Below are positions 4,761 through 42,986 of a stretch of DNA of 64,000 nucleotides, piece after piece. Source of the stretch: a virus; the IMG/VR virus record IMGVR_UViG_3300028558_000016, positions 406,014-470,013 of that record; one strand, given 5' to 3'. The translations under genes and the position numbers were made by a program. Positions within the stretch are counted from its first letter, which is position 1. The number at the start of each line of letters is the position of its first letter. Below the pieces are notes generated by a model that worked only from the letters and a program-made list of their open reading frames with translations, did no database searches and had not been told where the DNA came from.

Positions 4761-6056
4761 ATGAAAAAAACAGTAATCATTATTGGAGGTGGAACAGTAT
4801 CTCACGTCAGATCACATCTCGCCTTAGCTGCAGTTGCGTATGGAACTACAGCAAGACATTTAAAAGCAATTTGCGAAAGCCATTCGGATAAATTGGACGT
4901 CAAATTACATCTAACCAAAATGGCCGAAGGTTGGGCAACAAAGGATGGAATGGAAACAGCCGAAGATGTTGCAGCCTTAGTTCAAAAATTAAAAGCTGAT
5001 GTGAATGTGAAGATCATATTCTTTAATCCCGCCTTGGTGGATTTTTCTGGAGAAGTTACCGGACATGCTGCTTATAATACTAATGACTCTTTCACTAAAA
5101 TTGAAAGCGGAAAGTATTCTAAACGTTTAAACAGCAGAACTGGAAAAACAAGCATTGAGTTGTCTCCAAAAGAAAAGATCATAAAAGAAATACGCAACGG
5201 AAGAAAAGACATCTTCCTTGTTGGGTTTAAAACAACATGTGGTGCAACACAAGATGAACAATACATAGCAGGATTAAATCTTTTGAAAGAATCGAGTTGC
5301 AATCTTGTTCTTGCCAATGATACCAAAACGAGATTGAACATGATCATAACTCCAGAAGAAGCGAGATACCATGTAACAAAAAACAGGGATGAAGTTTTGG
5401 AGATGCTTGTTGAAATGGCATACTTAAGAAGCCATTTGTCTTTCACTCATAGCACAGTGATTGCCGGTGAAGCTATTCCATGGAAATCAGAATTAGTTCC
5501 AGACTCATTAAGAAAAGCAGTTGATTATTGCATTGAGAAAGGTGCATACAAAGAATTCAGAGGTTCTACTGTTGGTCACTTTGCTTGCAAGATAGATGAG
5601 AAAACCTTCTTGACGTCTAAACGTAAAACAAACTTCAATGACCTTGAGAAGAATGGTCTTGTTAAAGTTGTCGTTAATGGCAAGGACACTGTTATTGCGT
5701 ATGGAGCAAAACCTTCCGTTGGTGGACAATCACAGAGAATAATATTCTCTGAACATAATGATTATGATTGCATCGTACATTTCCATTGTCCTAAAAAAAT
5801 AAATTCACCAGTTCCTTCTGTATCACAAAGAGAATATGAATGTGGAAGCCATGAGTGTGGCAAAAACACTTCTAATGGTTTGAAACGCTTTGGTAATCTT
5901 TCTGCTGTTATGTTAGACAATCACGGGCCAAACATTGTATTCAATCATACTATTGATCCGCAGGAAGTAATTGATTTCATTGAAGCCAATTTTGACCTTG
6001 CTGGAAAAACCGGTGGTCCAGTTAAACTTGAACAAACATTACAAACTTCGTTATGA
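4761..6056 (+). CDS. two-domain protein: CoaB-like (phosphopantothenate--cysteine ligase fold) N-domain fused to a class II aldolase/adducin-like C-domain
   Basis: The N-domain (IIIGGGT...VR...; LVGFKTTCGATQDEQYIAGLNLLKESSCNLVLANDT) parallels CoaB motifs (ITAGPT...VR; VGFAAET..EYA..KNLDLICANDV); the C-domain has DCIVHFHCP and MLDNHGPNIVFNHT, which resemble the metal-binding His motifs of class II aldolase/epimerase enzymes. Confidence 0.55.
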   Translation: MKKTVIIIGGGTVSHVRSHLALAAVAYGTTARHLKAICESHSDKLDVKLHLTKMAEGWATKDGMETAEDVAALVQKLKADVNVKIIFFNPALVDFSGEVTGHAAYNTNDSFTKIESGKYSKRLNSRTGKTSIELSPKEKIIKEIRNGRKDIFLVGFKTTCGATQDEQYIAGLNLLKESSCNLVLANDTKTRLNMIITPEEARYHVTKNRDEVLEMLVEMAYLRSHLSFTHSTVIAGEAIPWKSELVPDSLRKAVDYCIEKGAYKEFRGSTVGHFACKIDEKTFLTSKRKTNFNDLEKNGLVKVVVNGKDTVIAYGAKPSVGGQSQRIIFSEHNDYDCIVHFHCPKKINSPVPSVSQREYECGSHECGKNTSNGLKRFGNLSAVMLDNHGPNIVFNHTIDPQEVIDFIEANFDLAGKTGGPVKLEQTLQTSL

Positions 6057-7579: not shown

Positions 7580-7893
7580 ATAAACATTGAAACAATTTTA
7601 AAAAGAAAAGGTATATAGTTTAGAAGATTGCTTACAGCAAAACAAAATGGTTAAAGAATCACCGAAAGGTGGTTTTTTCGGTTCGATCCCGAAGCTCTGA
7701 GATTACATCAATGAGTTTTAAGGCAATCTGAAAGACATTAGAATAACAATACAATGAAGAACAGGAATCACATACACAAGCATCAGATATGGCATAGAGA
7801 TATGTCGGGCTTGGGTGTTACCTGTACTTTGAAGTAAGTATTGGTTATTTACGAAAGTAAAACCTCAAGGCCTAAAACCTTGAGGTTTTTTTT
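7580..7893 (+). ncRNA. candidate about 300-nt non-coding RNA with a 6-codon mini-ORF (unclassified)
   Basis: Lies between a promoter and a strong terminator with no protein ORF; 7-bp hairpin ACCGAAA-GGTGGTTT-TTTCGGT; mini-ORF ATGAGTTTTAAGGCAATCTGA at 7711–7731; AAGGTATATAG block shared with the 11.1-kb module. Confidence 0.4.
7858..7893 (+). terminator. rho-independent terminator
   Basis: AAACCTCAAGG-CCTAAAA-CCTTGAGGTTT followed by TTTTTTT. Confidence 0.75.
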
Positions 7894-7901
7894 ATTTACA
7901 T

Positions 7902-7984
7902 ACGTCGGTGTCCGAGCGGTCAAAGGTAGCGGTCTCCAAAACCGCGGAGTTTCTCCATCGTGGGTTCGAATCCTACCCGGCGTG
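7902..7984 (+). tRNA. tRNA-?(CCA): class II (long variable arm) tRNA with anticodon CCA, decoding UGG; G73 discriminator; Ser/Tyr-like body
   Basis: Acceptor ACGTCGG/CCGGCGT (one G·U); D region TCCGAGCGGTCAAAGG typical of Ser/Tyr/Leu; anticodon arm GCGGT-CTCCAAA-ACCGC; variable-arm hairpin GGAG-TTT-CTCC; T arm GTGGG-TTCGAAT-CCTAC. Confidence 0.6.
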
Positions 7985-8005
7985 CAAAAATTAAAAGAAG
8001 AAAAC

Positions 8006-8350
8006 ATGAATGCAACAGATGTGAAGAAAGAGCTTTACAAAAGCAAAGTGACAGCAAAGTTAACAGACATTGTTAATGGAACAATGTTTTATTCTGTTCA
8101 ATTGGAAGATGGCTTATATCGTTTCCCAATAGTTCAGGTGAAAGAAGTTGGTGGACCATTATACAGGCTTGAGGCAAAAACACAAACAAGCCCAACAGTT
8201 TCTTTGACGTACACGAAACTCGAAGAGAAATGTTATTCACTTTCTTCTGATCTCGGAAGCACTCCTTTCTATCCTGAAATGAAAGCTTCTGAATTAAACA
8301 GGTGGATTGAAAAGGCAATAAAGGATGGAGAGTTTGTGAAGTTGTATTAA
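8006..8350 (+). CDS. hypothetical protein (114 aa)
   Basis: ORF beginning MNATDVKK, downstream of the tRNA; the annotated longer ORF overlaps the tRNA, so the start was trimmed. Confidence 0.45.
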   Translation: MNATDVKKELYKSKVTAKLTDIVNGTMFYSVQLEDGLYRFPIVQVKEVGGPLYRLEAKTQTSPTVSLTYTKLEEKCYSLSSDLGSTPFYPEMKASELNRWIEKAIKDGEFVKLY

Positions 8351-8360
8351 TGGAAATTAT

Positions 8361-8450
8361 GGTGCAGGTATCCAAGGGGTTGAAGGGACCAGGCTGTGGA
8401 CCTGGTTGAAGCGAAAGCTGAACACGCGAGTTCGAATCTCGTCTTGCACC
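8361..8450 (+). tRNA. tRNA-His(GTG): tRNA-His-like (anticodon GTG) with G-1 and C73 but an unusually long variable region (about 89 nt)
   Basis: G-1 plus acceptor GTGCAGG/CTTGCAC and C73; anticodon arm CCAGG-CTGTGGA-CCTGG; extra hairpin AGC-GAAA-GCT before T arm GCGAG-TTCGAAT-CTCGT. Confidence 0.5.
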
Positions 8451-8456
8451 CACATG

Positions 8457-8530
8457 TGGATTGTAGCTCAATGGTAGAGCGCTGGTTTGTGGAACCAGAT
8501 ATGCGGGTTCGATCCCCGTCTTTCCAACCA
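8457..8530 (+). tRNA. tRNA-His(GTG): tRNA-His (anticodon GTG), class I, encoded CCA; acceptor stem with two U·U mismatches
   Basis: D arm GCTC-AATGGTA-GAGC; anticodon arm CTGGT-TTGTGGA-ACCAG; T arm GCGGG-TTCGATC-CCCGT; 3' ACCA; acceptor TGGATTG/CTTTCCA. Confidence 0.6.
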
Positions 8531-8539
8531 AAAGAAGCA

Positions 8540-9172
8540 ATGATGAAAGAGTTAAAGTTAGATAGCACGTACAAAGGAACGAGAATTCTTGTAGGAAACG
8601 AGAAGCGTGGAATGATCAATGACATGGTCATGATTTTATTGAATCAAGGCTTCACTGAGATTTCCATTCCGATCATTCAGTTGCAAGAAACATTTGCAGG
8701 AAAGGTTGGAGAAGAAAATAACAATCTAATGTTCAATTTTAAAGATCGTGGAGAAAGGAATGTTTGCTTGGCTCCTGAATACACAGCAGTGATTCAACAA
8801 TTGGCAAAGACGAAATACAAACAAGAAAAGGACGTAAAGCTTTTCTATGTGCAAGAATGTTTTAGAGGAGAAAAGCCTCAAGCAGGAAGATACAGACAGT
8901 TTACTCAATTTGGAGTTGAAATTTTAAATCCAAAGAAAGAAACTATGGAAGGATTAAAAGAATTAGCCGTCAGCCTTTTGTCCGGTTATGATTTCAAATT
9001 CAACGTCAACAGTGATGTGACGAGAGGTTTGGATTATTACAAGGACGGAAAAGGATTTGAGATCACATGCGATGAGCTTGGATCAAGCAAACAGATTTGT
9101 GGTGGAGGTTCTTATGAAGGTGGAATGGGTTTTGCAATTGGAATTGATAGGATATTAAAAACACAGTCATGA
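8540..9172 (+). CDS. compact histidyl-tRNA synthetase-like protein (class II catalytic core, about 210 aa; no anticodon-binding domain)
   Basis: Motif 2 CFRGEKPQAGRYRQFTQFGVEIL (compare HisRS FRhERPQkGRYRQFhQ); motif 3 CGGGSYEGGMGFAIGIDRIL; N-terminal GTRILVGNE...EISIPIIQLQETF matches HisRS motif 1; about half the length of canonical HisRS. Confidence 0.75.
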   Translation: MMKELKLDSTYKGTRILVGNEKRGMINDMVMILLNQGFTEISIPIIQLQETFAGKVGEENNNLMFNFKDRGERNVCLAPEYTAVIQQLAKTKYKQEKDVKLFYVQECFRGEKPQAGRYRQFTQFGVEILNPKKETMEGLKELAVSLLSGYDFKFNVNSDVTRGLDYYKDGKGFEITCDELGSSKQICGGGSYEGGMGFAIGIDRILKTQS

Positions 9173-9900
9173 AATATTTAGTAGGAATACAGCCAACAGG
9201 AAAGATCCATATTGGAAACTATATGGGTTGCTTAGCAAAGGGGTTGAGATACCAGGAGCAGGGACACGAAGTAACGTTTCTCATTGCCAACTATCACAGC
9301 ATGACGACAGACTCATACTCTGATGTGACTGAGAAGGAATTGAGAATGCTTGGATGCAAGAACATTGTGCACCAGACTCCGGCTTACACTGAATTGTTCT
9401 TCAAGCTTTGTTGCAAGATGAACCTTGGAGTTTTGCAGAAGATGCCTCAGTACAAGGATAAAAAGGAAAGTGTTGATTTCGATATGGGGATTCTTTTATA
9501 TCCAGTTCTAATGGCAGCAGACATCATCATGAATGATCCTGATGTTGTGTTGGTTGGAAGAGACCAGGTTCCACACATGGAATTGACGAACGATATTGCA
9601 AAAAGAGTTGGAGTAACAAAGAGGTTTGAATACGAGCTTGGGGATGTTGAAAAGGTGATGTCGTTAATTGATCCAACAATGAAGATGTCAAAGTCATCTG
9701 GCGAAGCTCACGTGCTTTACCTATTTGACGAGGATTACAGTAACAAATTGAAAAGAGCAAACATGAACGGAGAAGGACTCATTAATATACAAAAGATAGG
9801 AGACTTCTTTGGAATAGAAAGAAACGATATGAATTCCATATACAAAGAAAATATAGCAATAAAACTGTCATCGGTGTTCGGCACCGTCCCGGTGACTTAA
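9169..9900 (+). CDS. compact tryptophanyl-tRNA synthetase-like protein (class Ic; 243 aa; C-terminal anticodon-binding region truncated)
   Basis: GIQPTGKIHIGNYMG matches the TrpRS N-terminus (SGxQPSGelTIGNYxG); YPVLMAADI; VGRDQVPHMELTNDIAKR; KMSKS at residues 172–176; ATGA overlap with the HisRS-like stop. Confidence 0.75.
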   Translation: MKYLVGIQPTGKIHIGNYMGCLAKGLRYQEQGHEVTFLIANYHSMTTDSYSDVTEKELRMLGCKNIVHQTPAYTELFFKLCCKMNLGVLQKMPQYKDKKESVDFDMGILLYPVLMAADIIMNDPDVVLVGRDQVPHMELTNDIAKRVGVTKRFEYELGDVEKVMSLIDPTMKMSKSSGEAHVLYLFDEDYSNKLKRANMNGEGLINIQKIGDFFGIERNDMNSIYKENIAIKLSSVFGTVPVT

Positions 9901-9922
9901 ATAAAACCGGTGCCGTCCAAAT

Positions 9923-10007
9923 GGGCGTGTACCGGTGGAATCTTATACATTCTATACCCGTAGTCTGGTCGTTGAAAACGGGGGTTCAAATCCCTCCACG
10001 CCTACCA
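9923..10007 (+). tRNA. atypical tRNA-like gene (no recognisable D arm; anticodon-like hairpin with TAT; encoded CCA)
   Basis: Acceptor GGGCGTG/CACGCCT; T arm GGGGG-TTCAAAT-CCCTC; 3' ACCA; the only 5+7+5 hairpin is GGAAT-CTTATAC-ATTCT; a 26-nt extra segment precedes the T arm; 85 nt in total. Confidence 0.4.
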
Positions 10008-10011
10008 AATT

Positions 10012-10050
10012 TAGCTTCATGAATTATGATATATAGTTCATGAAGCATTT
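10012..10050 (+). promoter_or_regulatory. 9-bp inverted repeat spanning the start codon of the downstream ORF
   Basis: CTTCATGAA-TTATGATATATAG-TTCATGAAG; the ATG of ORF 10040 lies in the 3' arm. Confidence 0.4.
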
Positions 10051-10576
10051 ACAGACATATCAGCAGCTTAACGAGAGCATGATAGATTCCAATTTGAAGA
10101 AGGAATTTGCATTTACCCTAAAACAAATGGATGAAATTTCCAATGCAATACTCAATGCAAAAGATTTCAAGAACAGGGTAAAGCTTATGAAGAAAGAAAA
10201 CCCAGATATTGGAAAAGCTATGGGAGATTACAAAGAATATCTTGATCTCGCCACCAAGGTGCAAAAAATAGTAAAACAAATTAGATCAAAAGGACTTTCT
10301 TCAGACAGAAGAAAAGCGACTAAACAATTGAGAGCCATCCAGGGGTTTTCTGGTACACTTAAAACAGTTTTCGATAATTTGAATAAGTTTGATAAAAAAA
10401 CCAAAAAGGGTTTTGAAAGCAACGAAGGAATAGCAACCATCATTGGAAATACATTAAGAAATATATTGACTGGTCAGTTCATAGTTAACATATTAAAAAC
10501 CATAAAAGGAAATTTAATGGATTCACAAGCAGAACTAACTACTGTGCAAGATGTATTTGATATAAAAGATTATTAA
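10040..10576 (+). CDS. hypothetical protein (178 aa); the N-terminus MKHLQTYQQLNE weakly resembles the MKHIKLFE leader family
   Basis: ORF with a loosely similar N-terminal motif. Confidence 0.45.
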   Translation: MKHLQTYQQLNESMIDSNLKKEFAFTLKQMDEISNAILNAKDFKNRVKLMKKENPDIGKAMGDYKEYLDLATKVQKIVKQIRSKGLSSDRRKATKQLRAIQGFSGTLKTVFDNLNKFDKKTKKGFESNEGIATIIGNTLRNILTGQFIVNILKTIKGNLMDSQAELTTVQDVFDIKDY

Positions 10577-11382: not shown

Positions 11383-11466
11383 CGGCACGTACTCAGACCA
11401 TCCTGATAAGATGGATAACTTGTAGCGGTGTTGCAAACGTGGGTTCAAATCCCTCCGTGCCGACCA
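11383..11466 (+). tRNA. atypical tRNA-like gene (anticodon-like hairpin GAT; no recognisable D arm; long extra segment; encoded CCA)
   Basis: Acceptor CGGCACG/CGTGCCG perfect; hairpin CCATC-CTGATAA-GATGG (canonical Ile-GAU loop); only 6 nt between position 9 and the hairpin; 24-nt extra segment; T arm GTGGG-TTCAAAT-CCCTC; ACCA end. Confidence 0.4.
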
Positions 11467-11814: not shown

Positions 11815-11960
11815 ATGTCCTTAGCTCAGTGGTTAGAGTATTATGCTGATAAAAGGTTTTAGATCTTGTAATGGAAAAATATCACGGCTCATAACCGTGG
11901 TACCAAAACAAAAATTTAAAATGCACATAAGGGTCGGTGGTTCGAATCCATCAGGACATG
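11815..11960 (+). tRNA. tRNA (Ile-GAT-like) interrupted by an about 72-nt insertion in the anticodon loop
   Basis: Acceptor ATGTCCT/AGGACAT perfect; D arm GCTC-AGTGGTTA-GAGT; anticodon-stem halves TTATG ... CATAA separated by 72 nt that begin CTGATAA and contain the hairpin CACGG-CTCATAA-CCGTG; T arm GGTGG-TTCGAAT-CCATC. Confidence 0.5.
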
Positions 11961-11969
11961 CATAAAAAT

Positions 11970-12043
11970 GCCCGCGTAGCTCAACTGGATAGAGCACCTG
12001 ACTACGGATCAGGAGGTTTAGAGTTCGAATCTCTACGTGGGTA
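11970..12043 (+). tRNA. tRNA-Arg(ACG): tRNA-Arg (anticodon ACG)
   Basis: D arm GCTC-AACTGGATA-GAGC; anticodon arm CCTGA-CTACGGA-TCAGG; T arm TAGAG-TTCGAAT-CTCTA. Confidence 0.75.
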
Positions 12044-12047
12044 CATT

Positions 12048-12121
12048 GGTTTTGTAGCTCAATTGGATAGAGCAATTCCGTCCTAAGGAAAAGGTTATAG
12101 GTTCGAGTCCTATCAAGATCA
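12048..12121 (+). tRNA. tRNA-Arg(CCT): tRNA-Arg (anticodon CCT)
   Basis: D arm GCTC-AATTGGATA-GAGC; anticodon loop GTCCTAA; T arm ATAGG-TTCGAGT-CCTAT; acceptor GGTTTTG/CAAGATC with two G·U pairs. Confidence 0.65.
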
Positions 12122-12126
12122 CAAAT

Positions 12127-12199
12127 GCCTGCGTAGCTCAGTGGACAGAGCGCCGGTCTTCGGAACCGGGCGTCGGGAGTTCGAATCTCTCCGTGGGTA
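12127..12199 (+). tRNA. tRNA-Arg(TCG): tRNA-Arg (anticodon TCG)
   Basis: D arm GCTC-AGTGGACA-GAGC; anticodon arm CCGGT-CTTCGGA-ACCGG; T arm GGGAG-TTCGAAT-CTCTC. Confidence 0.75.
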
Positions 12200-12223
12200 C
12201 TGAAGTAAAATGGAATTAAATAT

Positions 12224-12313
12224 GCCCGTGTAGCCGAGGAAGTTTTCTAAACTTTTATCCGTAATTGGAGCTGCGTCTCACGACTAATGGGGGTTCGAAT
12301 CCCTCCACGGGTA
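12224..12313 (+). tRNA. atypical tRNA-like gene (anticodon-like hairpin TCT; no recognisable D arm; 33-nt extra segment; 90 nt)
   Basis: Acceptor GCCCGTG/CACGGGT; hairpin GAAGT-TTTCTAA-ACTTT; T arm GGGGG-TTCGAAT-CCCTC; same architecture as the elements at 9923 and 11383. Confidence 0.4.
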
Positions 12314-12328
12314 CTTAAAATTAAAGTT

Positions 12329-13492
12329 ATGAAAATTGATATTGATAAAATAAAACAGATCCCCAAAGAGATTTCGGAAGAATTTGGGATGTGCGTCTAT
12401 GGACCAATCTCAGATGAGATTAAGGCATGGATGGAATTCCATGGTATGCAATCGCAAAACATGGGAAATTATACAAACATCTATACAGATAAAAACATTA
12501 TTGATCTGTTCAATAAACCAGAACCATTTGAATACATCGATGGGTTCAGTCCAAACCTAAACAAGAATCTTCACATTGGACACTTCTCAAATTTAGTTCT
12601 TGCAAAGGCTTTCGTCTCTCTTGGAATAGCAAAGAAGACTGTGGCAATATTGGGAGACACGTTAGAAGGGGATGTTTCAAAGGAAGATGCGTTGAACAAC
12701 TACAATGAGATATGTGAGAAATTCTCATACCCCGTAGATAAGATGTTCATGGCTTCTGAAATGGAATCTGATTACAACCTCGTGGATGGTGTTCATGAAT
12801 ATGAAGGAACCAAAGTGTTCTATCTTGATACGCCATTAGTTGGAATCAAAAGCGATGGGTCAACAACATATTTCTATCAGGACGTTGCATTGGCACAAAA
12901 ATTAAATGCTCCAACATTATATCTTACAGGAAGCGAACAGAACGGACATTTCAACAGCTTAAAGGAAATGTTTCCTAAAATAAAGCACATTGGACTTGGA
13001 CTTGTAAAAGCAAAAGGAGGAAAGATGTCAAGCAGACTCGGAAATGTTATTTGGATGCAAGATGTCATCGATGAAATGATGAGCAACTTTCAAGACGAAA
13101 AAGTGTGCTATAATGTTTTTGCAGGATTTATTTTGAAATCAACTCCTAAGTCTGAAAAGAACATAGACATATATCAATTGGACAATCCATTGAATTCACC
13201 TGGATTGTACTTAAGCTATACGTTAGCAAAACTAAAAAGCGCTGGAGTGAAATGTGAAGGAAAAACATTCACCTCTCAAGATCTTCAATTCAAATACATG
13301 AAGGCCTTGAACTCTCTTTCTCCAAATATTTTGCTTGAAGGTTTAATTGATCATGCAAAGAAGATAAGCGGTTTATACATCACTCACAAGATAAAAGATA
13401 ATGCGGTGAACCAGTCCATGTTTGAAATATTGGGTTCAGATTTATTATTAGGAATGAGCCTCCTGGGTTTATTTGATGTTGACAAGGTTTAA
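12329..13492 (+). CDS. compact arginyl-tRNA synthetase-like protein (class I; 388 aa versus about 570 aa canonical)
   Basis: HIGH motif SPNLNKNLHIGHFSN; ArgRS-specific KMSSRLGN in place of KMSKS (compare ArgRS kkMSTRkG) followed by ...QDVIDE; starts 16 nt after the last tRNA-like gene. Confidence 0.7.
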   Translation: MKIDIDKIKQIPKEISEEFGMCVYGPISDEIKAWMEFHGMQSQNMGNYTNIYTDKNIIDLFNKPEPFEYIDGFSPNLNKNLHIGHFSNLVLAKAFVSLGIAKKTVAILGDTLEGDVSKEDALNNYNEICEKFSYPVDKMFMASEMESDYNLVDGVHEYEGTKVFYLDTPLVGIKSDGSTTYFYQDVALAQKLNAPTLYLTGSEQNGHFNSLKEMFPKIKHIGLGLVKAKGGKMSSRLGNVIWMQDVIDEMMSNFQDEKVCYNVFAGFILKSTPKSEKNIDIYQLDNPLNSPGLYLSYTLAKLKSAGVKCEGKTFTSQDLQFKYMKALNSLSPNILLEGLIDHAKKISGLYITHKIKDNAVNQSMFEILGSDLLLGMSLLGLFDVDKV

Positions 13493-13549: not shown

Positions 13550-14506
13550 ATGGCAACCAAAACATCTAAAGCCGCAACAGGAACCGTGAAAGCACGAACA
13601 GCAGGAAGAAAAGCAACGACATCAACAAAGACACCAATGAAAGCAGAAACTACATTGGAACCAAAAAAGGCCTCGAAGATTAAAATAAGTGGAAAAGAAG
13701 TTACATTGAACGGGTATTTTAAAATTGAATTGGGAACCTTTTCGATTTTAAAGCACAACATCCGAAACAACATAAGCACTCTTTTAATAGGTCCAACAGG
13801 ACTTGGAAAAACAGATGTCGCAGTTAACATTGCGTCTGTGCTCGATGTTCCTATAACCATATTTGATATGGGAACGATGACTGACCCCATCATGGGACTT
13901 GTTGGAACTCACGTCATAGAGGTTAAAGATGGAAAAACATATTCTGAATTCAAGAAAAGCAGATTCTCTGACGTCATCCAAAAACCAGGAATAGTTTTAT
14001 TGGATGAGGTCAATCGTGCTGCATCAGCCGCTAACAACTTATTATTTCCTTGTTTAGATTTCAGAAGAGAGCTTCCAATGGAATATTCGTTTGGAGATAC
14101 TAAGCCAATTCCAATTCATCCTAAATGTGTTTTCTTTGCAACGGCAAATATAGGATCTCAGTATACCGGAACTCACAAGCTTGACAGAGCATTAATCGAT
14201 AGGTTCATGATTATTGCAGTTGATAGTCTCAACACTCAACAAATTATGTCCACGTTAGAAGTGACTCATTCTAAATTAAGTGAGACTGACAGAAAAAAGA
14301 TTGTTGACATTTACAACAAGATAAACAAAGAGCATGACGATTTCAAAATAGGTTTCAATTTGTCAATACGACATTTGAAAACTGTTGCGACACTTGTGCA
14401 AAACAAGTTCACGATATATGATGCGTATTATGCAATATGCAAAGGACTTGGTGGACCAGAAGGATTAAAAGCTATTGAATCGATCTTAAGCACCTCTAAA
14501 AAATGA
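13550..14506 (+). CDS. MoxR/CobS-like AAA+ ATPase
   Basis: Walker A LLIGPTGLGKTDVA; Walker B VLLDEVNRA (the DExNRA form typical of MoxR/CobS); K/T-rich N-terminal tail. Confidence 0.7.
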   Translation: MATKTSKAATGTVKARTAGRKATTSTKTPMKAETTLEPKKASKIKISGKEVTLNGYFKIELGTFSILKHNIRNNISTLLIGPTGLGKTDVAVNIASVLDVPITIFDMGTMTDPIMGLVGTHVIEVKDGKTYSEFKKSRFSDVIQKPGIVLLDEVNRAASAANNLLFPCLDFRRELPMEYSFGDTKPIPIHPKCVFFATANIGSQYTGTHKLDRALIDRFMIIAVDSLNTQQIMSTLEVTHSKLSETDRKKIVDIYNKINKEHDDFKIGFNLSIRHLKTVATLVQNKFTIYDAYYAICKGLGGPEGLKAIESILSTSKK

Positions 14507-16242
14507 TAGGATTTGATATTACAGGAAAGAAATCAAAAAGCGTAACTAAATGGGAAGACTCATTGTTTGGAGGCTATTACAGAACTGTAATGGATTACCC
14601 GGACGTGAAAGTTCACAGCAACGTTGATTTTGATTTTGGAACCATAGCGTATGGAAGTTACTTTTTAAAAGAGAAGATCTTGAAGATTTTCTTATCTAAG
14701 GTTAAAACACACGGTTACACTACAAAGCTTTTGGATAACTGTACTGTCGAAAGAAAACGAGATGCATGGGGTGATGAAATCACTGAGGCCACCGTAGATA
14801 ATAACAGCAAGCTCAGTACAATAAGAGCTGTGATTGCAAGAGAACCAGAGTTTGCTCCTATGTTTTCCCATTATATGAAGTTTATAATGGACACCAGAAT
14901 TTACTTTTACAAAAGCAATTCTAAAGCTCCAAGCAATGGGACTGGTTCTTCAGACGACGATTTTGAAGAATTTAAGGATGAAAACGAAAATGACGAATCA
15001 TCCGGAAAATCAGAAGAAGAAAAATCTAAAAACGGAAACTCCGGTAAAGGCAAAGAGAAAGAGAAAGAAGAAGAGAAACCAGAAGAAACCAAGGATGAAA
15101 GCTCTGGTGATGGAGAAGGAGAAGAAAAAGAGGAGCCAGAAAATTCCGAATCTGATGGTTCAAATTCTGAAGAAGAAAAGGAAGAAGAAAAAGGAGATGG
15201 AGAAGGAGAAGGAGAAGAAAAATCTCCAGAGGATAAGGCGTTGGAAGATAAATTAGAAAAAGAACTTGAGAAAAGGAAACAGGAAATAGAAGAACGAGAA
15301 CAGAAGGCAAAACAAAAACCTGTCAAAAAATTAACTCAGGCTGAAATAAATCAAATCCAAGAATCTTTCAAAAAGGCCATTCAAAGTATAGTTGAAGAGT
15401 CCATTGTTCATAGCTACATTTCAGGATTTAAAAAACCTGTTAAAGTAATTTTTGAACGACCAAATGTTAGAGACACTGAGTTTAATTACGAAGACAAAAG
15501 AATAGCCGAGAATCTCGTTAAGATGCTCGACATTTCATTTGACCCAGCGAAAGAAATAGTAAAGAACTTGCGTCTTGGCAAATTGGACATATCAAAGATT
15601 GCAGAGGTTCCAGCCGGAAATATTGCCATATACAAGCAGGATGTGGAAAATCAAACGACTAAACCATTTAGCATTGTAATATTATGTGATGAGTCAGGAA
15701 GCATGGGTTCTGGACATGAATACAAAGGACGTGGCGATAAATTGTATTCGCAATATAGAATAGTCAAACAATTGTACTTGGCATTTTCTGACATCATTCC
15801 ACAGAATAAACTCTATGTGTATGGACATTCGGGATCAGAAGAACCTGAGCTTTATGTTTATCAAGATTCTTATCGTCCAAATTTTACCAAGACGATTGAT
15901 CACATGATCCACAACCATAATCACCATTCCAATTATGATGGACCTGCAATAGAAGAAGTTTACAATCAGGTAAGAAATTCCACCGATGATAGAATAATTT
16001 TTATTTGTCTTTCTGATGGTCAACCTGCTGGAAATAATTATGGAGGTCACGATGATCAATTGAAAATGAAACAAATAATTGAAAAATGTAAGAGGGATGA
16101 ATTCGTGACTGTTGGTGTTGGAATTCAATATTTCACCGTAAAGAATCTTTATCAATACAGCACGGTGGTAACTGATCTGGATGAAATGGCTAAGAAAGTG
16201 AGTCACATAGTCAATCACGTGGTCAAAAGTGAGTTTCAATAA
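14503..16242 (+). CDS. CobT-like protein: acidic low-complexity centre plus a C-terminal VWA domain
   Basis: E/K/G-rich region EEEKEEEKGDGEGEGEEK; MIDAS motif ILCDESGSM (DxSxS); the partnership with the upstream AAA+ gene mirrors CobS/CobT and other MoxR–VWA pairs. Confidence 0.6.
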   Translation: MIGFDITGKKSKSVTKWEDSLFGGYYRTVMDYPDVKVHSNVDFDFGTIAYGSYFLKEKILKIFLSKVKTHGYTTKLLDNCTVERKRDAWGDEITEATVDNNSKLSTIRAVIAREPEFAPMFSHYMKFIMDTRIYFYKSNSKAPSNGTGSSDDDFEEFKDENENDESSGKSEEEKSKNGNSGKGKEKEKEEEKPEETKDESSGDGEGEEKEEPENSESDGSNSEEEKEEEKGDGEGEGEEKSPEDKALEDKLEKELEKRKQEIEEREQKAKQKPVKKLTQAEINQIQESFKKAIQSIVEESIVHSYISGFKKPVKVIFERPNVRDTEFNYEDKRIAENLVKMLDISFDPAKEIVKNLRLGKLDISKIAEVPAGNIAIYKQDVENQTTKPFSIVILCDESGSMGSGHEYKGRGDKLYSQYRIVKQLYLAFSDIIPQNKLYVYGHSGSEEPELYVYQDSYRPNFTKTIDHMIHNHNHHSNYDGPAIEEVYNQVRNSTDDRIIFICLSDGQPAGNNYGGHDDQLKMKQIIEKCKRDEFVTVGVGIQYFTVKNLYQYSTVVTDLDEMAKKVSHIVNHVVKSEFQ

Positions 16243-19048: not shown

Positions 19049-19636
19049 ATGATAACAATTGGTATAGCTGGTGGAATGGGTTCTGGTAAGAGCCACATAA
19101 GCAAAGCATTTGCAAAGAATGGAATTCCTGTTTATGACTGTGATAGCCAAACTAAGGATTTGTTAAACAGGAATGAAAGATTAAAATCCAACATGATTTC
19201 CGCGTTTGGAGAAGGATGTTATGTTAACGGAAAATACAGCAGAGATTACATAGTCGAATTGGCATCTAAAAATCCTAATGTGGTAGATGATACTGGAAAA
19301 ATAATAGGTCCGTATCTTATTGAAGACTTCAAAACATTTAAAGAAATTAATGAGTCTTTCCATACTCCATTCATTGCTATAGAATCTGCGATACTTACTA
19401 AATCAAAAAAGCTTATGAATGAAATCAATAAGCTTCTTGTGGTGACTGCCCCATTTGAAATAAGAATGGATAGAATTAAAAAGAGAGATCCATTTAGAAC
19501 TGACGATGAAATCAAATTGTTATTAAGCAAACAGCCTGAGATCAAATTGTGTGAAATAGATTTTCTTATAGATAATGATGGAACTAAAAATGTGGATGAT
19601 GCCGTTGTGACAATTATTAATGGACTTATTCCTTAA
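19049..19636 (+). CDS. dephospho-CoA kinase (CoaE)-like P-loop kinase
   Basis: N-terminal ITIGIAGGMGSGKSHISKAF...IPVYDCD matches the CoaE signature (IGLTGGIGSGKS...VIDAD); 195 aa. Confidence 0.6.
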   Translation: MITIGIAGGMGSGKSHISKAFAKNGIPVYDCDSQTKDLLNRNERLKSNMISAFGEGCYVNGKYSRDYIVELASKNPNVVDDTGKIIGPYLIEDFKTFKEINESFHTPFIAIESAILTKSKKLMNEINKLLVVTAPFEIRMDRIKKRDPFRTDDEIKLLLSKQPEIKLCEIDFLIDNDGTKNVDDAVVTIINGLIP

Positions 19637-41569: not shown

Positions 41570-42040
41570 TCATATTTCTTGGTTGTTGTATAATATAGTG
41601 CTTGAATGTAAGTTCAATGTTATCTCTTTAGTTCTTGCAGCCTGCAGAAAATTATTTTCTTCCAGGTGTGTGAAAAAAAGAAGATCATCAAAGTCCACGC
41701 TCATGTTGCACTCCTTATATATCAAGGTGCCTATGATTTTACCCTTCTTACCATAATCATTATCCAAAATGGAAATTATGACGTCAGACTTCTTTTGGCT
41801 GTTTTTAAGCTTCAAAAGAGAATCGACAGGAACTATCTTCCTTGTGTCATTTTGGTAATAGAGTCCAAATGTTATCTCACGAGATGAAACAGACTTCACA
41901 CAATCGTGCAAGATCTGTTTATCCTCGTCAGTTAAATCTACTGAAGTGAATTCAACATCAAAGTATGTCGAATAAATCGGTTCCAGCTTCTTCACATTTT
42001 CCTCTTGCTTCAATAATTGATTGCTCGAATTCGTCTTCAT
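41570..42040 (-). CDS. hypothetical protein (start uncertain; overlaps the end of the sigma-factor gene)
   Basis: ORF. Confidence 0.35.
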   Translation of the reverse strand: MKTNSSNQLLKQEENVKKLEPIYSTYFDVEFTSVDLTDEDKQILHDCVKSVSSREITFGLYYQNDTRKIVPVDSLLKLKNSQKKSDVIISILDNDYGKKGKIIGTLIYKECNMSVDFDDLLFFTHLEENNFLQAARTKEITLNLHSSTILYNNQEI

Positions 42041-42986
42041 CGTTATGTTGGGTTTGTTTGTTTTTATTTCGTGACTGAACGAGCTTGAAGTATTCTGGAT
42101 TGTTCTCAATGATCTGAGTTCTCGCCCTCTTTATTCTCGTCTTAACGCTGTTAATGTTTATGTTGTGCTTCTCAGCAATTGCTTTATACTTCATTCCATT
42201 TAATTCTCTGTCGATCATGATCTCCTTGTAAAATCTTGAAAGGCCATTTATCTCCTTTAAAACTTTTTCATAGACAACCTGATGAACATCTTCAGACTCA
42301 TTGAGATCCCAATCAGGATCCACTTGCACCAATTCTTCGTCAGCACCACATCTTATCAAGTTGTGCTCGCTGTATTGCATTGCTTCCGAATGATTGCTTC
42401 CAGCATTTAATGAAACCAGCATCTTATTTTTTCTGATGTGTTGCATCGCCTCGTTGTGTACTATTCTATAAGCCCAAGTCGAAAAGTTCCAGTACTTGTT
42501 GTATTGATCTATCTTGCTCCAGATCTTTGTGAATGCAATAGACACAACATCTTCTGCAGAAGCTTCGTCTTTCAATATGTTCATTGCATGGAAAATCATT
42601 CCAGGTTTTAATCTTGCGTAAAGATTATTGAAATCTCTTTCTGATCTGCTCTTGTAAAATTCAAGTGCTATCTTCTGTAATCCTTTTGCCTTGATGATGT
42701 CATCCTCGGTTACTATTAATTCCTTTGGAATTTCTACTTCTATGTCTGCAACTTTTTCTGGTAAAGCAACAACTGCAGGAAGCTTTTGACAGTCGATGTA
42801 ATTATCGAACTTCAATTCACCTTTCTTAAGTTTACCTTTGTACCATGAAATATTTCCAGGTCCAGTCCTCGATCCCATTATTCTCATCACCTCATCCGCG
42901 ATCTGCTTGTTCGTCCACTCCTTGTTGTAGAAGATCAAGTGCATTGCACAATGTGCTATGCTTGGAAATTTTTGTTCTGTTGACAT
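41958..42986 (-). CDS. sigma-70/ECF-family RNA polymerase sigma factor with an about 130-aa N-terminal extension
   Basis: Region 2-like FSTWAYRIVHNEAMQHIRKNK; region 4 HTH YKEIMIDRELNGMKYKAIAEKHNININSVKTRIKRART. Confidence 0.65.
   Translation of the reverse strand: MSTEQKFPSIAHCAMHLIFYNKEWTNKQIADEVMRIMGSRTGPGNISWYKGKLKKGELKFDNYIDCQKLPAVVALPEKVADIEVEIPKELIVTEDDIIKAKGLQKIALEFYKSRSERDFNNLYARLKPGMIFHAMNILKDEASAEDVVSIAFTKIWSKIDQYNKYWNFSTWAYRIVHNEAMQHIRKNKMLVSLNAGSNHSEAMQYSEHNLIRCGADEELVQVDPDWDLNESEDVHQVVYEKVLKEINGLSRFYKEIMIDRELNGMKYKAIAEKHNININSVKTRIKRARTQIIENNPEYFKLVQSRNKNKQTQHNDEDEFEQSIIEARGKCEEAGTDLFDIL

What the first reader, a model, noticed from the sequence alone, without database searches (positions are those of the whole stretch)
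8540..9900. Translationally coupled minimal HisRS-like and TrpRS-like genes (anticodon-binding regions missing)
The HisRS-like protein (about 210 aa) keeps motifs 1–3 almost perfectly (FRGEKPQAGRYRQFTQFG; GGGSYEGGMGFAIGIDRI) but stops where the C-terminal anticodon-binding domain should begin. The TrpRS-like protein (243 aa) keeps the TIGN-type HIGH region, GxDQxxHxEL and KMSKS but has only about 65 aa after KMSKS, against about 130 in canonical TrpRS. The two genes overlap by ATGA and are flanked by their cognate, atypical tRNAs. A phage-borne pair of stripped-down synthetases with co-encoded non-canonical tRNAs looks like a semi-orthogonal charging module. It could keep His/Trp decoding going when host tRNAs or synthetases are attacked (anticodon nucleases, tRNA-targeting toxins), or it could reprogramme decoding.
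Basis: partly seen in the sequence, partly recalled or inferred. Interest (0 to 1): 0.85.

Follow-up and report, generated by a model that had tools for sequence, protein, structure and literature searches.

The report
Miniature phage His/Trp tRNA synthetases
A huge bacteriophage encodes back-to-back, much shortened but apparently working copies of the enzymes that load histidine and tryptophan onto tRNA, next to its own oddly shaped His and Trp tRNAs; these natural "minimal" synthetases are widespread in huge phages, and I found no paper describing them.

Summary
Window 8540-9172 encodes a 210-aa HisRS and 9169-9900 a 243-aa TrpRS, overlapping by ATGA. Both belong to large, length-constant families from huge-phage contigs (median 208 and 241 aa). 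They evolve under strong purifying selection (dN/dS 0.04-0.12), and every catalytic and amino-acid-binding residue is invariant. AlphaFold models match the HisRS and TrpRS catalytic cores.

- The HisRS lacks the ~95-aa insertion domain as well as the anticodon-binding domain.
- The TrpRS is trimmed rather than decapitated. It keeps CP1, the residue that reads discriminator G73, and the scaffold of the anticodon-reading loop and lysine. It loses loops and the last ~43 aa.
- Only the upstream tRNAs are cognate. The element downstream of TrpRS is a D-arm-less tRNA-Ile(UAU)-like RNA.

The cognate tRNAs carry standard identity marks (G-1:C73; A1-U72/G73) and standard anticodons, so orthogonality or recoding is not supported.

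Best reading: active, compacted synthetases that rely mainly on acceptor-end recognition, within a phage translation and tRNA-repair island. An ArgRS-like gene of 388 aa follows four Arg-type tRNA genes; relatives carry a 287-aa AlaRS-like gene and RNA ligases.

Phage synthetases are known. This degree of natural minimisation appears undescribed.

The parts
7859..7889 (+). Terminator-like hairpin followed by a T-run. It probably ends the upstream transcription unit, so the tRNA-aaRS block starts after it.
7902..7985 (+). tRNA-Trp(CCA), 84 nt, with a long variable arm (type-II-like body). It has A1-U72 and discriminator G73; no CCA is encoded.
   Evidence: The cloverleaf including the V-arm is supported by compensatory changes in 13 of 23 pairs. 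It is 96% identical to L094.
8006..8350 (+). 114-aa ORF of unknown function between the tRNA-Trp and tRNA-His genes.
   Evidence: No Pfam hit. Also called in L094.
8361..8451 (+). tRNA-His(GUG), 90 nt, with a long variable arm. G-1 is encoded at 8361 and pairs with C73.
   Evidence: The G-1:C73 pair is present in all 4 aligned long tRNA-His genes.
8456..8530 (+). tRNA-His(GUG), 74 nt, ordinary size. G-1 (8456) lies opposite A73, the acceptor stem has two U.U mismatches, and CCA is encoded. It ends 9 nt before the HisRS start codon.
   Evidence: (64 bits). The same unusual acceptor stem, with a different anticodon stem, occurs in L096. It is 100% identical to L094.
8540..9172 (+). Mini-HisRS, 210 aa: a class II catalytic core only. 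Motif 1 lies around 8651-8680, motif 2 at 8861-8914, HisA at 9023-9040, HisB plus motif 3 at 9101-9154. It has no insertion domain and no anticodon-binding domain.
9169..9172 (+). ATGA start/stop overlap between HisRS and TrpRS; translational coupling is inferred from it.
   Evidence: The same overlap occurs in L094, and a 1-nt gap occurs in L095-L097.
9169..9900 (+). Compact TrpRS, 243 aa. HIGN is at 9208-9219, GRDQVPHMEL at 9556-9585, KMSKS at 9682-9696. The remnant of the anticodon-reading loop lies at 9745-9777 and K226 at 9844-9846. The C-terminal ~43 aa and several loops are missing.
9907..9935 (+). 13-bp hairpin just after the TrpRS stop codon. It overlaps the 5' acceptor strand of the next element, so the two folds exclude each other.
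   Evidence: (fold of 9875-10010) and the sequence
9923..10007 (+). Non-canonical tRNA-like RNA, not cognate to Trp or His. It has a 7-bp acceptor stem, no D arm, an anticodon loop CUUAUAC (UAU, Ile), a D-like hairpin in the variable-arm position, a T arm, A73 and an encoded CCA.
   Evidence: The same architecture with different stems occurs at L049:5646-5736. It is 97.6% identical to L094, while the flanking genes are 80-90% identical.
11970..12313 (+). Same island, outside the finding: tRNA-Arg ACG, CCU and UCG, plus a D-arm-less tRNA-Arg(UCU)-like element at 12224-12313.
12326..13492 (+). Same island, outside the finding: ArgRS-like protein of 388 aa (canonical model 569 positions). Only part of the catalytic core is recognisable.
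   Evidence: dN/dS 0.064

Best explanation
These are genuine, active, evolutionarily compacted histidyl- and tryptophanyl-tRNA synthetases of a huge (Mahaphage-type, ~480 kb) bacteriophage.

Shown:
- Each keeps the complete adenylate-forming site and the residues that select His or Trp.
- Each keeps the residues that read the acceptor end of the tRNA.
- The parts that canonical enzymes use to grip the rest of the tRNA are deleted or trimmed. In HisRS these are the insertion domain and the whole anticodon-binding domain. In TrpRS they are loops of the helical domain and the C-terminal helix.

Inferred:
- The tRNA genes and the two mRNAs are made from one transcript, and RNase P/Z cut the tRNAs out.
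- TrpRS translation is coupled to HisRS translation through the ATGA overlap.
- The enzymes charge the phage's own tRNA-His and tRNA-Trp, and probably host ones too.
- HisRS would recognise chiefly G-1 and N73. TrpRS would recognise G73 plus a weakened anticodon contact.
- This would keep His and Trp decoding supplied during infection, when host tRNAs or synthetases are limiting or attacked.
- Losing anticodon-side contacts would also make charging insensitive to the unusual bodies and anticodon-arm changes of phage tRNAs.
For: Family membership and fold:
- HMM and PDB matches to HisRS and TrpRS.
- AlphaFold models with pLDDT 88 match the E. coli and T. thermophilus HisRS catalytic domain (TMq ~0.8, TMt ~0.45) and bacterial TrpRS (TMq 0.7-0.8).

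Invariant residues across 52-54 family members:
- HisRS: E80/T82, R109/E111/R117/R119/F121/Q123/E127, R162/Y166/Y167, Y192 and R204. These align with the Klebsiella HisRS motifs in A3; I take them to be the E. coli His- and ATP-binding residues E83/T85, R113/E115/R121/R123/F125/Q127/E131, R259/Y263/Y264, Y288 and R311 (numbering from my own knowledge).
- TrpRS: G16/N17, H43, Y111/M115/D118 (the Asp that reads the indole N), D132/Q133 and KMSKS 172-176 (role of the Asp from PMC12135181).

Acceptor-end readers kept:
- HisRS motif-2 loop P113, Q114, G116, R117, R119.
- TrpRS E138, equivalent to E. coli E155, which bonds G73.

Selection and spread:
- dN/dS 0.04-0.12.
- Length-constant families of more than 120 clusters each, on contigs up to 676 kb.
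- Essentially absent from 185,579 cellular species genomes: three MAG contigs only.

Cognate tRNAs:
- They lie directly upstream, and the same arrangement recurs in relatives L094, L096, L007/L037, L002/L078 and L082.
- The cultured Sinorhizobium phage Phosso has a 196-aa HisRS 275 nt after tRNA-His.
- A third synthetase (ArgRS-like) follows four Arg-type tRNA genes.

Precedent and context:
- Co-located phage TrpRS:tRNA pairs have been shown to be active (PMC12636597).
- RNA-repair genes (Rnl1, RtcB, RNA ligase) lie in related neighbourhoods.
Against: - No activity data exist for these proteins.
- Both score below NCBIfam's equivalog cut-offs (142 against 286.75; 131 against 176.75).
- From memory, an engineered E. 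coli HisRS fragment lacking the anticodon-binding domain (Augustine and Francklyn 1997) charges tRNA far less efficiently and less specifically. A still smaller natural enzyme might therefore be poor.
- The three E. coli TrpRS residues that bond C35 and A36 (T225, D226, S227) are M/T, N and G/E here.
- Most family loci have no tRNA within 3 kb, so tRNA linkage is not universal.
- Many truncated synthetase paralogues in cells (HisZ, EpmA/GenX, GluQRS) have left tRNA charging.
Confidence: 0.6

Rival explanations
1. Private charging circuit. The mini-enzymes have co-evolved with the phage's reshaped tRNAs: long-variable-arm tRNA-His and tRNA-Trp, and the A73/U.U tRNA-His. They charge these preferentially, while full-size host enzymes handle them poorly. 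This would give the phage a tRNA pool insulated from the host.
For: - In this lineage the only tRNA-Trp near the TrpRS is the long-arm form (window, L094, L095-L097).
- Long-arm His and Trp tRNAs recur beside the mini-enzymes (L008, L033, L035, L049, L057, L062).
- E. coli TrpRS approaches the acceptor stem from the major groove (PMC12135181). From established knowledge, class II enzymes such as HisRS do likewise, so the variable arm would face the protein. The deleted insertion domain, anticodon-binding domain and trimmed helical domain could then make room for a long arm (inference).
- The short tRNA-His with A73 and U.U mismatches is conserved and sits 9-18 nt before HisRS.
- One phage TrpRS:tRNA pair is orthogonal in E. 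coli.
Against: - Identity elements are the ordinary bacterial ones, and the enzyme residues that read them are unchanged.
- Phosso and many loci pair the mini-HisRS with an ordinary 74-77-nt tRNA-His.
- The motif-2 loop does not covary with N73.
- Long-arm versions also exist for Lys, Asn, Met, Gln and Ile. The one neighbouring LysRS examined keeps most of its anticodon-binding domain.
Confidence: 0.2
2. Repurposed paralogues. The proteins activate His or Trp but pass it to something other than the tRNA 3' end, such as a protein, a nucleotide or DNA modification, or a small molecule. Alternatively they act as regulators, as HisZ, EpmA/GenX, GluQRS and AsnA do in cells.
For: - Loss of anticodon-binding parts is the hallmark of such paralogues. 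The HisZ and genX models do hit related proteins.
- Most family loci lack nearby tRNAs.
- Scores fall below the equivalog cut-offs.
Against: - Residues that contact the tRNA acceptor end and discriminator are invariant.
- Cognate tRNAs are repeatedly adjacent.
- The hisS score far exceeds the hisZ score, and no hisG or other pathway partner lies nearby.
- No ORF family of 80 aa or more co-occurs with the mini-HisRS in more than 8 of 73 loci.
- Three different synthetase types sit beside their own tRNAs in one window.
Confidence: 0.12
3. Subunit hijack. HisRS and TrpRS are both obligate dimers. The mini-subunits would heterodimerise with host subunits, either poisoning the host enzyme or borrowing its anticodon-binding domain in trans.
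For: - Dimer-forming regions are retained: motif 1 in HisRS, and CP1 in TrpRS with only a 2-aa deletion.
- In TrpRS the tRNA spans both subunits.
Against: - Identity to bacterial enzymes is only about 30%, so a host-specific interface is unlikely across phages of different hosts.
- Invariant catalytic residues and low dN/dS would not be needed by a mere inhibitor.
Confidence: 0.04
4. Decaying gene fragments or assembly artefacts.
For: The proteins are truncated relative to every cellular homologue.
Against: - Hundreds of independent contigs carry the same lengths.
- dN/dS is 0.04-0.12.
- The models are confident and compact.
Confidence: 0.01

Closest known systems
Canonical bacterial/archaeal HisRS (class IIa; TIGR00442; PDB 1KMM, 1QE0, 4RDX)
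   Same: Motifs 1-3, HisA and HisB, all His- and ATP-binding residues, and the motif-2 loop that reads G-1:C73. The fold of the catalytic core matches.
   Different: Half the size (about 208 against about 420 aa). It has no insertion domain and no C-terminal anticodon-binding domain, and the HisB-to-motif-3 link is 11 aa shorter.
HisZ (regulatory subunit of ATP phosphoribosyltransferase)
   Same: A HisRS paralogue without the anticodon-binding domain.
   Different: From established knowledge, HisZ has degenerate catalytic residues, keeps the insertion region (about 310-390 aa) and works with HisG. Here the catalytic residues are invariant, the hisS score is 142 bits against 80 for hisZ, and no hisG lies nearby.
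Engineered HisRS and TrpRS fragments: HisRS urzymes (PMC3060492), TrpRS urzyme, N-terminal catalytic HisRS fragment (Augustine and Francklyn 1997, from memory)
   Same: Catalytic cores stripped of anticodon-binding and insertion modules that still activate the amino acid. The G73-reading residues of TrpRS lie within the urzyme (PMC12135181).
   Different: Those are laboratory constructs of 119-145 aa (or 1-320) with weak activity. These are natural, larger (208 and 241 aa), complete cores under purifying selection.
Bacterial TrpRS (TIGR00233; E. coli TrpRS-tRNA complex, PDB 9LPC)
   Same: HIGH-type and KMSKS signatures, the CP1 dimer and Trp pocket including the indole-reading Asp, and E155-type recognition of G73. 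The scaffold of the anticodon loop (K-x-K-x-A) and K274 are kept.
   Different: About 90 aa shorter. The C-terminal helix is absent (the last ~43 aa; the paper assigns E. coli residues 299-334 to the aminoacylation domain). Loops of the helical domain are trimmed, and T225/D226/S227 are replaced.
Synthetases of huge phages (Al-Shayeb et al. 2020, PMC7162821) and the phage AP1/HF2 TrpRS:tRNA(UCA) pairs (PMC12636597)
   Same: Phage-encoded synthetases co-located with phage tRNAs. The 2020 paper already proposed that they charge the phage's own tRNA variants. The closest relatives of these genes lie in those same 634-735-kb genomes.
   Different: I found no mention of truncation in those texts. 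AP1 TrpRS appears to be of normal size, judging from residue numbering parallel to E. coli, and it serves UGA recoding. Here the anticodon is CCA.
N-terminal-domain-less PylRS of Methanomethylophilus alvus (PDB 6JP2, 6EZD)
   Same: A natural class II synthetase of about 275 aa consisting of the catalytic domain only, which ignores the anticodon. It is the next-best structural match after HisRS.
   Different: Different amino acid and tRNA, about 17% identity, archaeal rather than viral.
Nematode nev-tRNAs (PMC3333845): class II tRNAs with anticodons other than Leu/Ser
   Same: A long variable arm on tRNAs whose anticodon belongs to a normally short-armed family.
   Different: According to that work, nev-tRNAs are charged with Leu against their anticodon. 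The phage tRNAs keep His and Trp acceptor identity marks, so cognate charging is expected.

Membership tests
Histidyl-tRNA synthetase (HisRS) | Class II motifs 1, 2 and 3 with the ATP-binding arginines | tested here: met
   R109, E111, R117, F121 and R204 are invariant in 54 sequences and align with Klebsiella HisRS.
Histidyl-tRNA synthetase (HisRS) | HisA (RGLDYY) and HisB (GGGxY) histidine-binding motifs | tested here: met
   R162-Y167 and G188-Y192 are invariant. The residue after GGG varies (S/E/Q/A/R).
Histidyl-tRNA synthetase (HisRS) | Helical insertion domain between motif 2 and HisA | tested here: not met
   S. aureus HisRS residues 141-240 correspond to 8 residues here. The A3 alignment shows a gap of about 95 aa.
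Histidyl-tRNA synthetase (HisRS) | C-terminal anticodon-binding domain | tested here: not met
   The protein ends 5 aa after motif 3. No conserved neighbouring ORF could supply the domain in trans.
Histidyl-tRNA synthetase (HisRS) | Curated equivalog score (TIGR00442, 286.75 bits) | tested here: not met
   142.2 bits.
Histidyl-tRNA synthetase (HisRS) | Charges tRNA-His | not testable with these tools
   Needs an aminoacylation assay.
HisZ | Degenerate catalytic site and partnership with HisG | tested here: not met
   Catalytic residues are invariant. hisZ scores 80 bits against 142 for hisS. No HisG family appeared among the 51 window ORFs scanned.
Tryptophanyl-tRNA synthetase (TrpRS) | HIGH-type (TIGN/HIGN) and KMSKS signatures | tested here: met
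   G16 and N17 and K172-S176 are invariant.
Tryptophanyl-tRNA synthetase (TrpRS) | Trp pocket with the indole-reading Asp in the MAAD helix; CP1 dimer module | tested here: met
   H43, Y111, M115 and D118 are invariant, and CP1 has only a 2-aa deletion. The role of the Asp comes from PMC12135181.
Tryptophanyl-tRNA synthetase (TrpRS) | Recognition of discriminator G73 (E. coli Q152/E155) | tested here: inconclusive
   The E155 equivalent (E138) is kept in most members. Q152 is replaced by P or A.
Tryptophanyl-tRNA synthetase (TrpRS) | Helical domain that reads C34-C35-A36 (E. coli T225, D226, S227, K274) | tested here: inconclusive
   The loop scaffold K193/K195/A197 and K226 are conserved, but T/D/S become M(T)/N/G(E), and loops of 3, 13 and 9 aa are deleted.
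Tryptophanyl-tRNA synthetase (TrpRS) | C-terminal helix; curated equivalog score (176.75 bits) | tested here: not met
   The last ~43 aa are absent. The score is 131 bits.
Urzyme-type minimal synthetase | About 120-145-aa excerpt lacking CP1 or motif 3 and all accessory modules | tested here: not met
   At 208 and 241 aa, these retain CP1 and the full class II core. The definition comes from PMC3060492 and PMC9026127.
Phage-encoded synthetase/tRNA island of huge phages | Synthetase genes in a huge-phage genome beside phage tRNA arrays | tested here: met
   described in PMC7162821.

The most novel reading that the evidence does not exclude
Huge phages run a partly private translation sub-system. 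It would be built from near-minimal synthetases (HisRS about 208 aa, TrpRS about 241 aa, AlaRS-like 287 aa, ArgRS-like 388 aa) that read little more than the acceptor end, together with re-engineered tRNAs: long-variable-arm 'twins' of His, Trp, Lys, Asn and Met tRNAs, and D-arm-less Ile and Arg tRNAs. The deleted protein modules and the altered tRNA bodies would be co-adaptations that keep charging going while escaping host tRNA nucleases and host synthetases. These enzymes would then be natural, working examples of the 'operational RNA code' mode of tRNA recognition proposed for primordial synthetases.
Probability: 0.2. Interest if true: 0.85.

Novelty: new variant of a known kind. Interest (0 to 1): 0.66.

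Why it matters
If active, these would be by far the smallest natural HisRS and TrpRS, about half and about three-quarters of normal size.

- They would show that a class II core without either tRNA-gripping module, and a class I core with a stub of its anticodon domain, suffice in a living system. Until now this question has been addressed only with weakly active engineered urzymes and fragments.
- They offer compact scaffolds and candidate new synthetase/tRNA pairs for genetic-code engineering.
- Together with the reshaped tRNAs and RNA-repair genes, they suggest how huge phages protect translation against tRNA-targeting defences.
- A cultured phage (Sinorhizobium phage Phosso) carries a family member, so the idea can be tested by experiment.

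Tried and rejected
- **DNA similarity.** Megablast of 7800-10100 against 50,697 phage records found no DNA-level relative. Relatives appear only at the protein level.
- **PHROGs.** There is no family for the mini-HisRS. The TrpRS hits only an unannotated full-length-type family.
- **ArgRS-like protein.** A sequence search of the PDB found nothing, so its missing domains could be mapped only roughly.
- **Downstream element read as tRNA-Trp.** Rejected. ARAGORN does not call it, and Rfam gives only a weak tmRNA-type match to its tRNA-like ends. The 7-nt loop with U33 reads UAU. The CCA seen at 9917-9919 straddles the stem-loop junction of the 9907-9935 hairpin rather than sitting in an anticodon loop.
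- **Homologues of that element.** Short-query blastn found only T-arm matches. The L049 homologue was recognised by architecture.
- **Anticodon-binding domain supplied in trans by a linked gene.** Rejected. No ORF family of 80 aa or more accompanies the mini-HisRS in more than 8 of 73 loci. ORFs 8006-8350 and 10040-10576 have no Pfam hit.
- **Obligate His-Trp two-gene module.** Rejected.
- **HisZ-like regulator and pseudogene readings.** Rejected.
- **More synthetases in the window.** None among 39 further ORFs of 150 aa or more.
- **Literature.** Nine full-text searches found no description of truncated phage synthetases or of long-arm phage tRNA-His, tRNA-Trp or tRNA-Lys. Subscription-only papers are not covered.
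- **Failed script.** One script call returned nothing and was rerun.
Full report
**1. The observation**

8540..9172 (+) encodes 210 aa, with a second in-frame ATG at 8543. 9169..9900 (+) encodes 243 aa. The TrpRS ATG (9169-9171) overlaps the HisRS TGA (9170-9172) as ATGA.

The first protein matches Pfam tRNA-synt_His and scores 142 bits against NCBIfam hisS, against 80 bits for hisZ. The second matches tRNA-synt_1b and scores 131 bits against trpS, covering model positions 6-224 of 328. Both fall below the curated full-length cut-offs, as expected for shortened proteins.

The quoted motifs are present. HisRS motif 2 is at 8861-8914, HisA at 9023-9040, and HisB plus motif 3 at 9101-9154. TrpRS HIGN is at 9208-9219, GRDQVPHMEL at 9556-9585 and KMSKS at 9682-9696, with 67 residues after KMSKS.

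**2. What is missing**

*HisRS.* Against solved HisRS structures, residues 26-137 align with S. aureus 23-140 and residues 146-196 with 241-293. Alignment with Klebsiella HisRS (424 aa) shows three losses:
- 11 aa between HisB and motif 3;
- the whole C-terminal anticodon-binding domain of about 100 aa.

*TrpRS.* Against Salmonella TrpRS (334 aa), CP1 is intact apart from a 2-aa deletion. Loops of 5, 8 and 12 aa are removed from the Rossmann domain. The C-terminal helical domain loses loops of 3, 13 and 9 aa, and the final ~43 aa are absent.

The E. coli TrpRS-tRNA structure paper (PMC12135181) shows how the tRNA is read. Loop R222-S227 and K274 read the anticodon. Y270 and G271 also contact it. 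E155 reads G73.

In the phage family the loop scaffold (K193, K195, A197, N198) and the K274 equivalent (K226) are invariant or nearly so, and the E155 equivalent (E138) is mostly kept. T225, D226 and S227, however, have become M/T, N and G/E.

So "anticodon-binding region missing" is correct for HisRS. For TrpRS it is only half correct: a stub that may still touch the anticodon remains.

**3. Real, functional gene families**

Each protein has at least 120 sequence clusters at 62-95% identity with nearly constant length. HisRS ranges 204-279 aa with median 208; TrpRS ranges 215-304 aa with median 241. They lie on contigs up to several hundred kb.

Across 52-54 members the catalytic and substrate-binding residues are invariant:
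- HisRS: E80, T82, R109, E111, R117, R119, F121, Q123, E127, R162, Y166, Y167, Y192, R204.
- TrpRS: G16, N17, H43, Y111, M115, D118, D132, Q133, K172-S176.

Against the closest contigs (L094, L096), dN/dS is 0.12 and 0.065 for HisRS, 0.043 for TrpRS (L094; the L096 TrpRS comparison was saturated) and 0.064 for the neighbouring ArgRS-like gene (L094).

AlphaFold models are confident (pLDDT 88.3 and 87.6). Their best PDB matches are the catalytic domain of E. coli and T. thermophilus HisRS (TMq ~0.8 but TMt ~0.45, i.e. about half of the target) and bacterial TrpRS.

Pseudogene and HisZ-like readings are therefore excluded.

**4. Origin**

The nearest annotated relatives lie in the 634-735-kb uncultured huge-phage genomes LR745206 and LR756501-3, at 62-72% identity. 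These sizes match the largest genomes of Al-Shayeb et al. 2020, which that paper places in its Mahaphage clade with predicted Bacteroidetes hosts.

IMG/VR holds 71 loci with the mini-HisRS and 18 with the mini-TrpRS. The exact TrpRS sequence occurs on a 482,156-bp contig.

Among 185,579 cellular species genomes, only three MAG contigs carry the mini-HisRS. All other matches are full-length, mostly archaeal HisRS.

The cultured Sinorhizobium phage Phosso (469 kb) has an annotated 196-aa HisRS at 42% identity, 275 nt downstream of a tRNA-His.

**5. The tRNAs**

Upstream of the genes, after a terminator-like hairpin (7859-7889), lie three cognate tRNAs:
- tRNA-Trp(CCA), 84 nt (7902-7985);
- tRNA-His(GUG), 90 nt (8361-8451);
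- tRNA-His(GUG), 74 nt (8456-8530), ending 9 nt before the HisRS ATG.

The two long ones have a true long variable arm on a type-II-like body. In five long tRNA-Trp genes, 13 of 23 pairs show compensatory changes, including pairs in the variable arm.

Their identity marks are orthodox. Every phage tRNA-His examined has an encoded G-1, always preceded by AT, and nearly all have C73. Most tRNA-Trp genes have A1-U72 (a few begin G1-C72 or G1.U72), and nearly all have G73.

The short tRNA-His is odd in another way: A73 and two U.U mismatches in the acceptor stem. This is conserved in L096, although the anticodon stem there differs.

The element after TrpRS (9923-10007) is not a tRNA-Trp. It has an acceptor stem, a T arm, A73 and CCA, but no D arm. 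Its 7-nt loop CUUAUAC gives anticodon UAU, and a D-like hairpin sits where the variable arm should be. The same architecture with different stems occurs at L049:5646-5736. It is 97.6% identical to L094, while the flanking genes are 80-90% identical, so it is a selected RNA.

**6. Context**

Downstream, tRNA-Arg ACG, CCU and UCG and a D-arm-less Arg(UCU)-like element precede an ArgRS-like gene of 388 aa.

In relatives the neighbourhoods contain:
- a 287-aa AlaRS-like gene, lying between TrpRS and HisRS in L013;
- a 387-aa LysRS that keeps most of its anticodon-binding domain;
- a full-size SerRS;
- T4-type RNA ligase 1, RtcB and other RNA ligase and repair domains.

HisRS and TrpRS are adjacent or near each other in several lineages, but in varying order, and 68 HisRS loci have no TrpRS within 3 kb. 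No other ORF family accompanies the mini-HisRS consistently.

Many normally short tRNAs in these phages (Lys, His, Trp, Asn, Met, Gln, Ile-UAU, Arg-CCU) have 84-92-nt long-arm versions, and in several families (Lys, His, Trp, Asn, Met) these sit beside ordinary copies.

**7. Mechanism**

*Shown.* The adenylation sites and amino-acid pockets are intact, the acceptor-end readers are retained, the tRNA-body-binding modules are lost, selection is strong, and the genes are repeatedly linked to cognate tRNAs.

*Inferred.*
- The tRNAs and mRNAs are co-transcribed and the tRNAs are processed out.
- Translation of the two genes is coupled through ATGA.
- Both enzymes act as homodimers.
- HisRS charges chiefly through G-1 and N73, which from established knowledge is the dominant HisRS identity element.
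- TrpRS charges through G73 plus a weakened anticodon contact.
- The role is to keep His and Trp decoding supplied in an infected cell, in line with the proposal of Al-Shayeb et al. and with demonstrated activity of other co-located phage TrpRS:tRNA pairs.

Because the identity elements and the residues that read them are the bacterial ones, I expect cross-reaction with host tRNAs and enzymes. I therefore do not endorse "semi-orthogonal" or "reprogramming". The private-circuit variant remains possible (about 0.2) and is the most interesting reading.

**8. Novelty**

Phage synthetases, truncated synthetase paralogues and engineered minimal synthetases are all known. Nine full-text searches found no description of naturally minimised HisRS or TrpRS in phages, and PHROGs has no family for the mini-HisRS. 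I rate this a new variant of a known kind, with interest 0.66.

Noticed in passing
window 7902-7985 and 8361-8451; L003:2700-2986, L008:2902-2987, L049:693-778, L057:1672-1760 and many others: Long-variable-arm versions (84-92 nt) of tRNAs that are normally short (Lys UUU/CUU, His, Trp, Asn, Met, Gln, Ile-UAU, Arg-CCU, Pro-AGG). For Lys, His, Trp, Asn and Met they sit beside ordinary 72-78-nt copies with the same anticodon. Length distributions are bimodal. The arms covary and acceptor identity marks are kept. I found no description of this in the literature.
   Followed up: partly
window 9923-10007, 11383-11466, 12224-12313; L049:5646-5736: A class of D-arm-less tRNA-like RNAs. The layout is acceptor stem, 7-8-nt connector, anticodon arm (UAU, GAU, UCU), a D-like hairpin in the variable-arm position, T arm, A73, with CCA encoded in two of the three window copies. 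ARAGORN mostly misses them. They are more conserved than the flanking genes.
   Followed up: partly
window 11815-11960: A 146-nt match to the Rfam tRNA model (48.7 bits). It has a normal acceptor stem, D arm and T arm, but about 70 extra nt around the anticodon region. Both a GAU-type and a CAU-type anticodon loop can be drawn. It is 96.6% identical to L094.
   Followed up: no
window 12326-13492 (ORF as listed starts at 12287 but overlaps the tRNA-like element): An ArgRS-like protein of 388 aa, directly after four Arg-type tRNA genes. Only part of the catalytic core is recognisable (argS model positions 299-393 of 569). There is no PDB sequence hit. dN/dS is 0.064.
   Followed up: partly
L013:3843-4706; L085:1303-2466; L010:4626-5897: Other synthetases next to the mini-HisRS or mini-TrpRS in relatives: an AlaRS-like protein of only 287 aa (alaS model positions 2-165 of 847), a 387-aa LysRS, and a full-size 423-aa SerRS. 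Minimisation therefore affects several synthetases but not all.
   Followed up: partly
L095/L096:10819-11913; L095:2196-3512; ORF set: RNA-repair genes lie in the same neighbourhoods: T4 RNA ligase 1, RtcB, RNA_ligase, and the HAD domain of 'Swiss Army Knife' RNA repair proteins. A TnpB/IS605-type gene and several GIY-YIG, LAGLIDADG and HNH homing endonucleases lie among the tRNA arrays.
   Followed up: no
window 8456-8530; L096:5280-5351: The short tRNA-His just before HisRS has G-1 opposite A73 and two U.U mismatches in the acceptor stem. These are conserved between lineages, while the anticodon stem covaries. The L096 copy also has a non-standard T loop (AGCAUAA).
   Followed up: partly
all tRNA-His genes listed: Every tRNA-His gene, long or short and in all lineages including Phosso, is preceded by A-T and then the encoded G-1 (ATG|GTG...). 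This may be a conserved 5'-processing context.
   Followed up: no
window 9907-9935: A strong 13-bp hairpin immediately after the TrpRS stop codon shares its 3' arm with the 5' acceptor strand of the following tRNA-like RNA. The two folds exclude each other. No T-run follows.
   Followed up: no
window, ORFs (e.g. sigma factor 41958-42986; dephospho-CoA kinase 19049-19636; MoxR-type AAA plus VWA pair 13550-16242): Other unusual cargo: an ORF with a ribosomal protein L7/L12 C-terminal domain, and an ORF with major-vault-protein shoulder and repeat domains. ADP-ribosylglycohydrolase, NUDIX, a sigma-70 factor and a class II aldolase-like domain (4761-6056) are also present.
   Followed up: no
L094 against window: In the closest relative, HisRS is much more diverged (82% aa identity) than the overlapping TrpRS (95%) and the ArgRS-like gene (92%), although all three are syntenic.
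   Followed up: no
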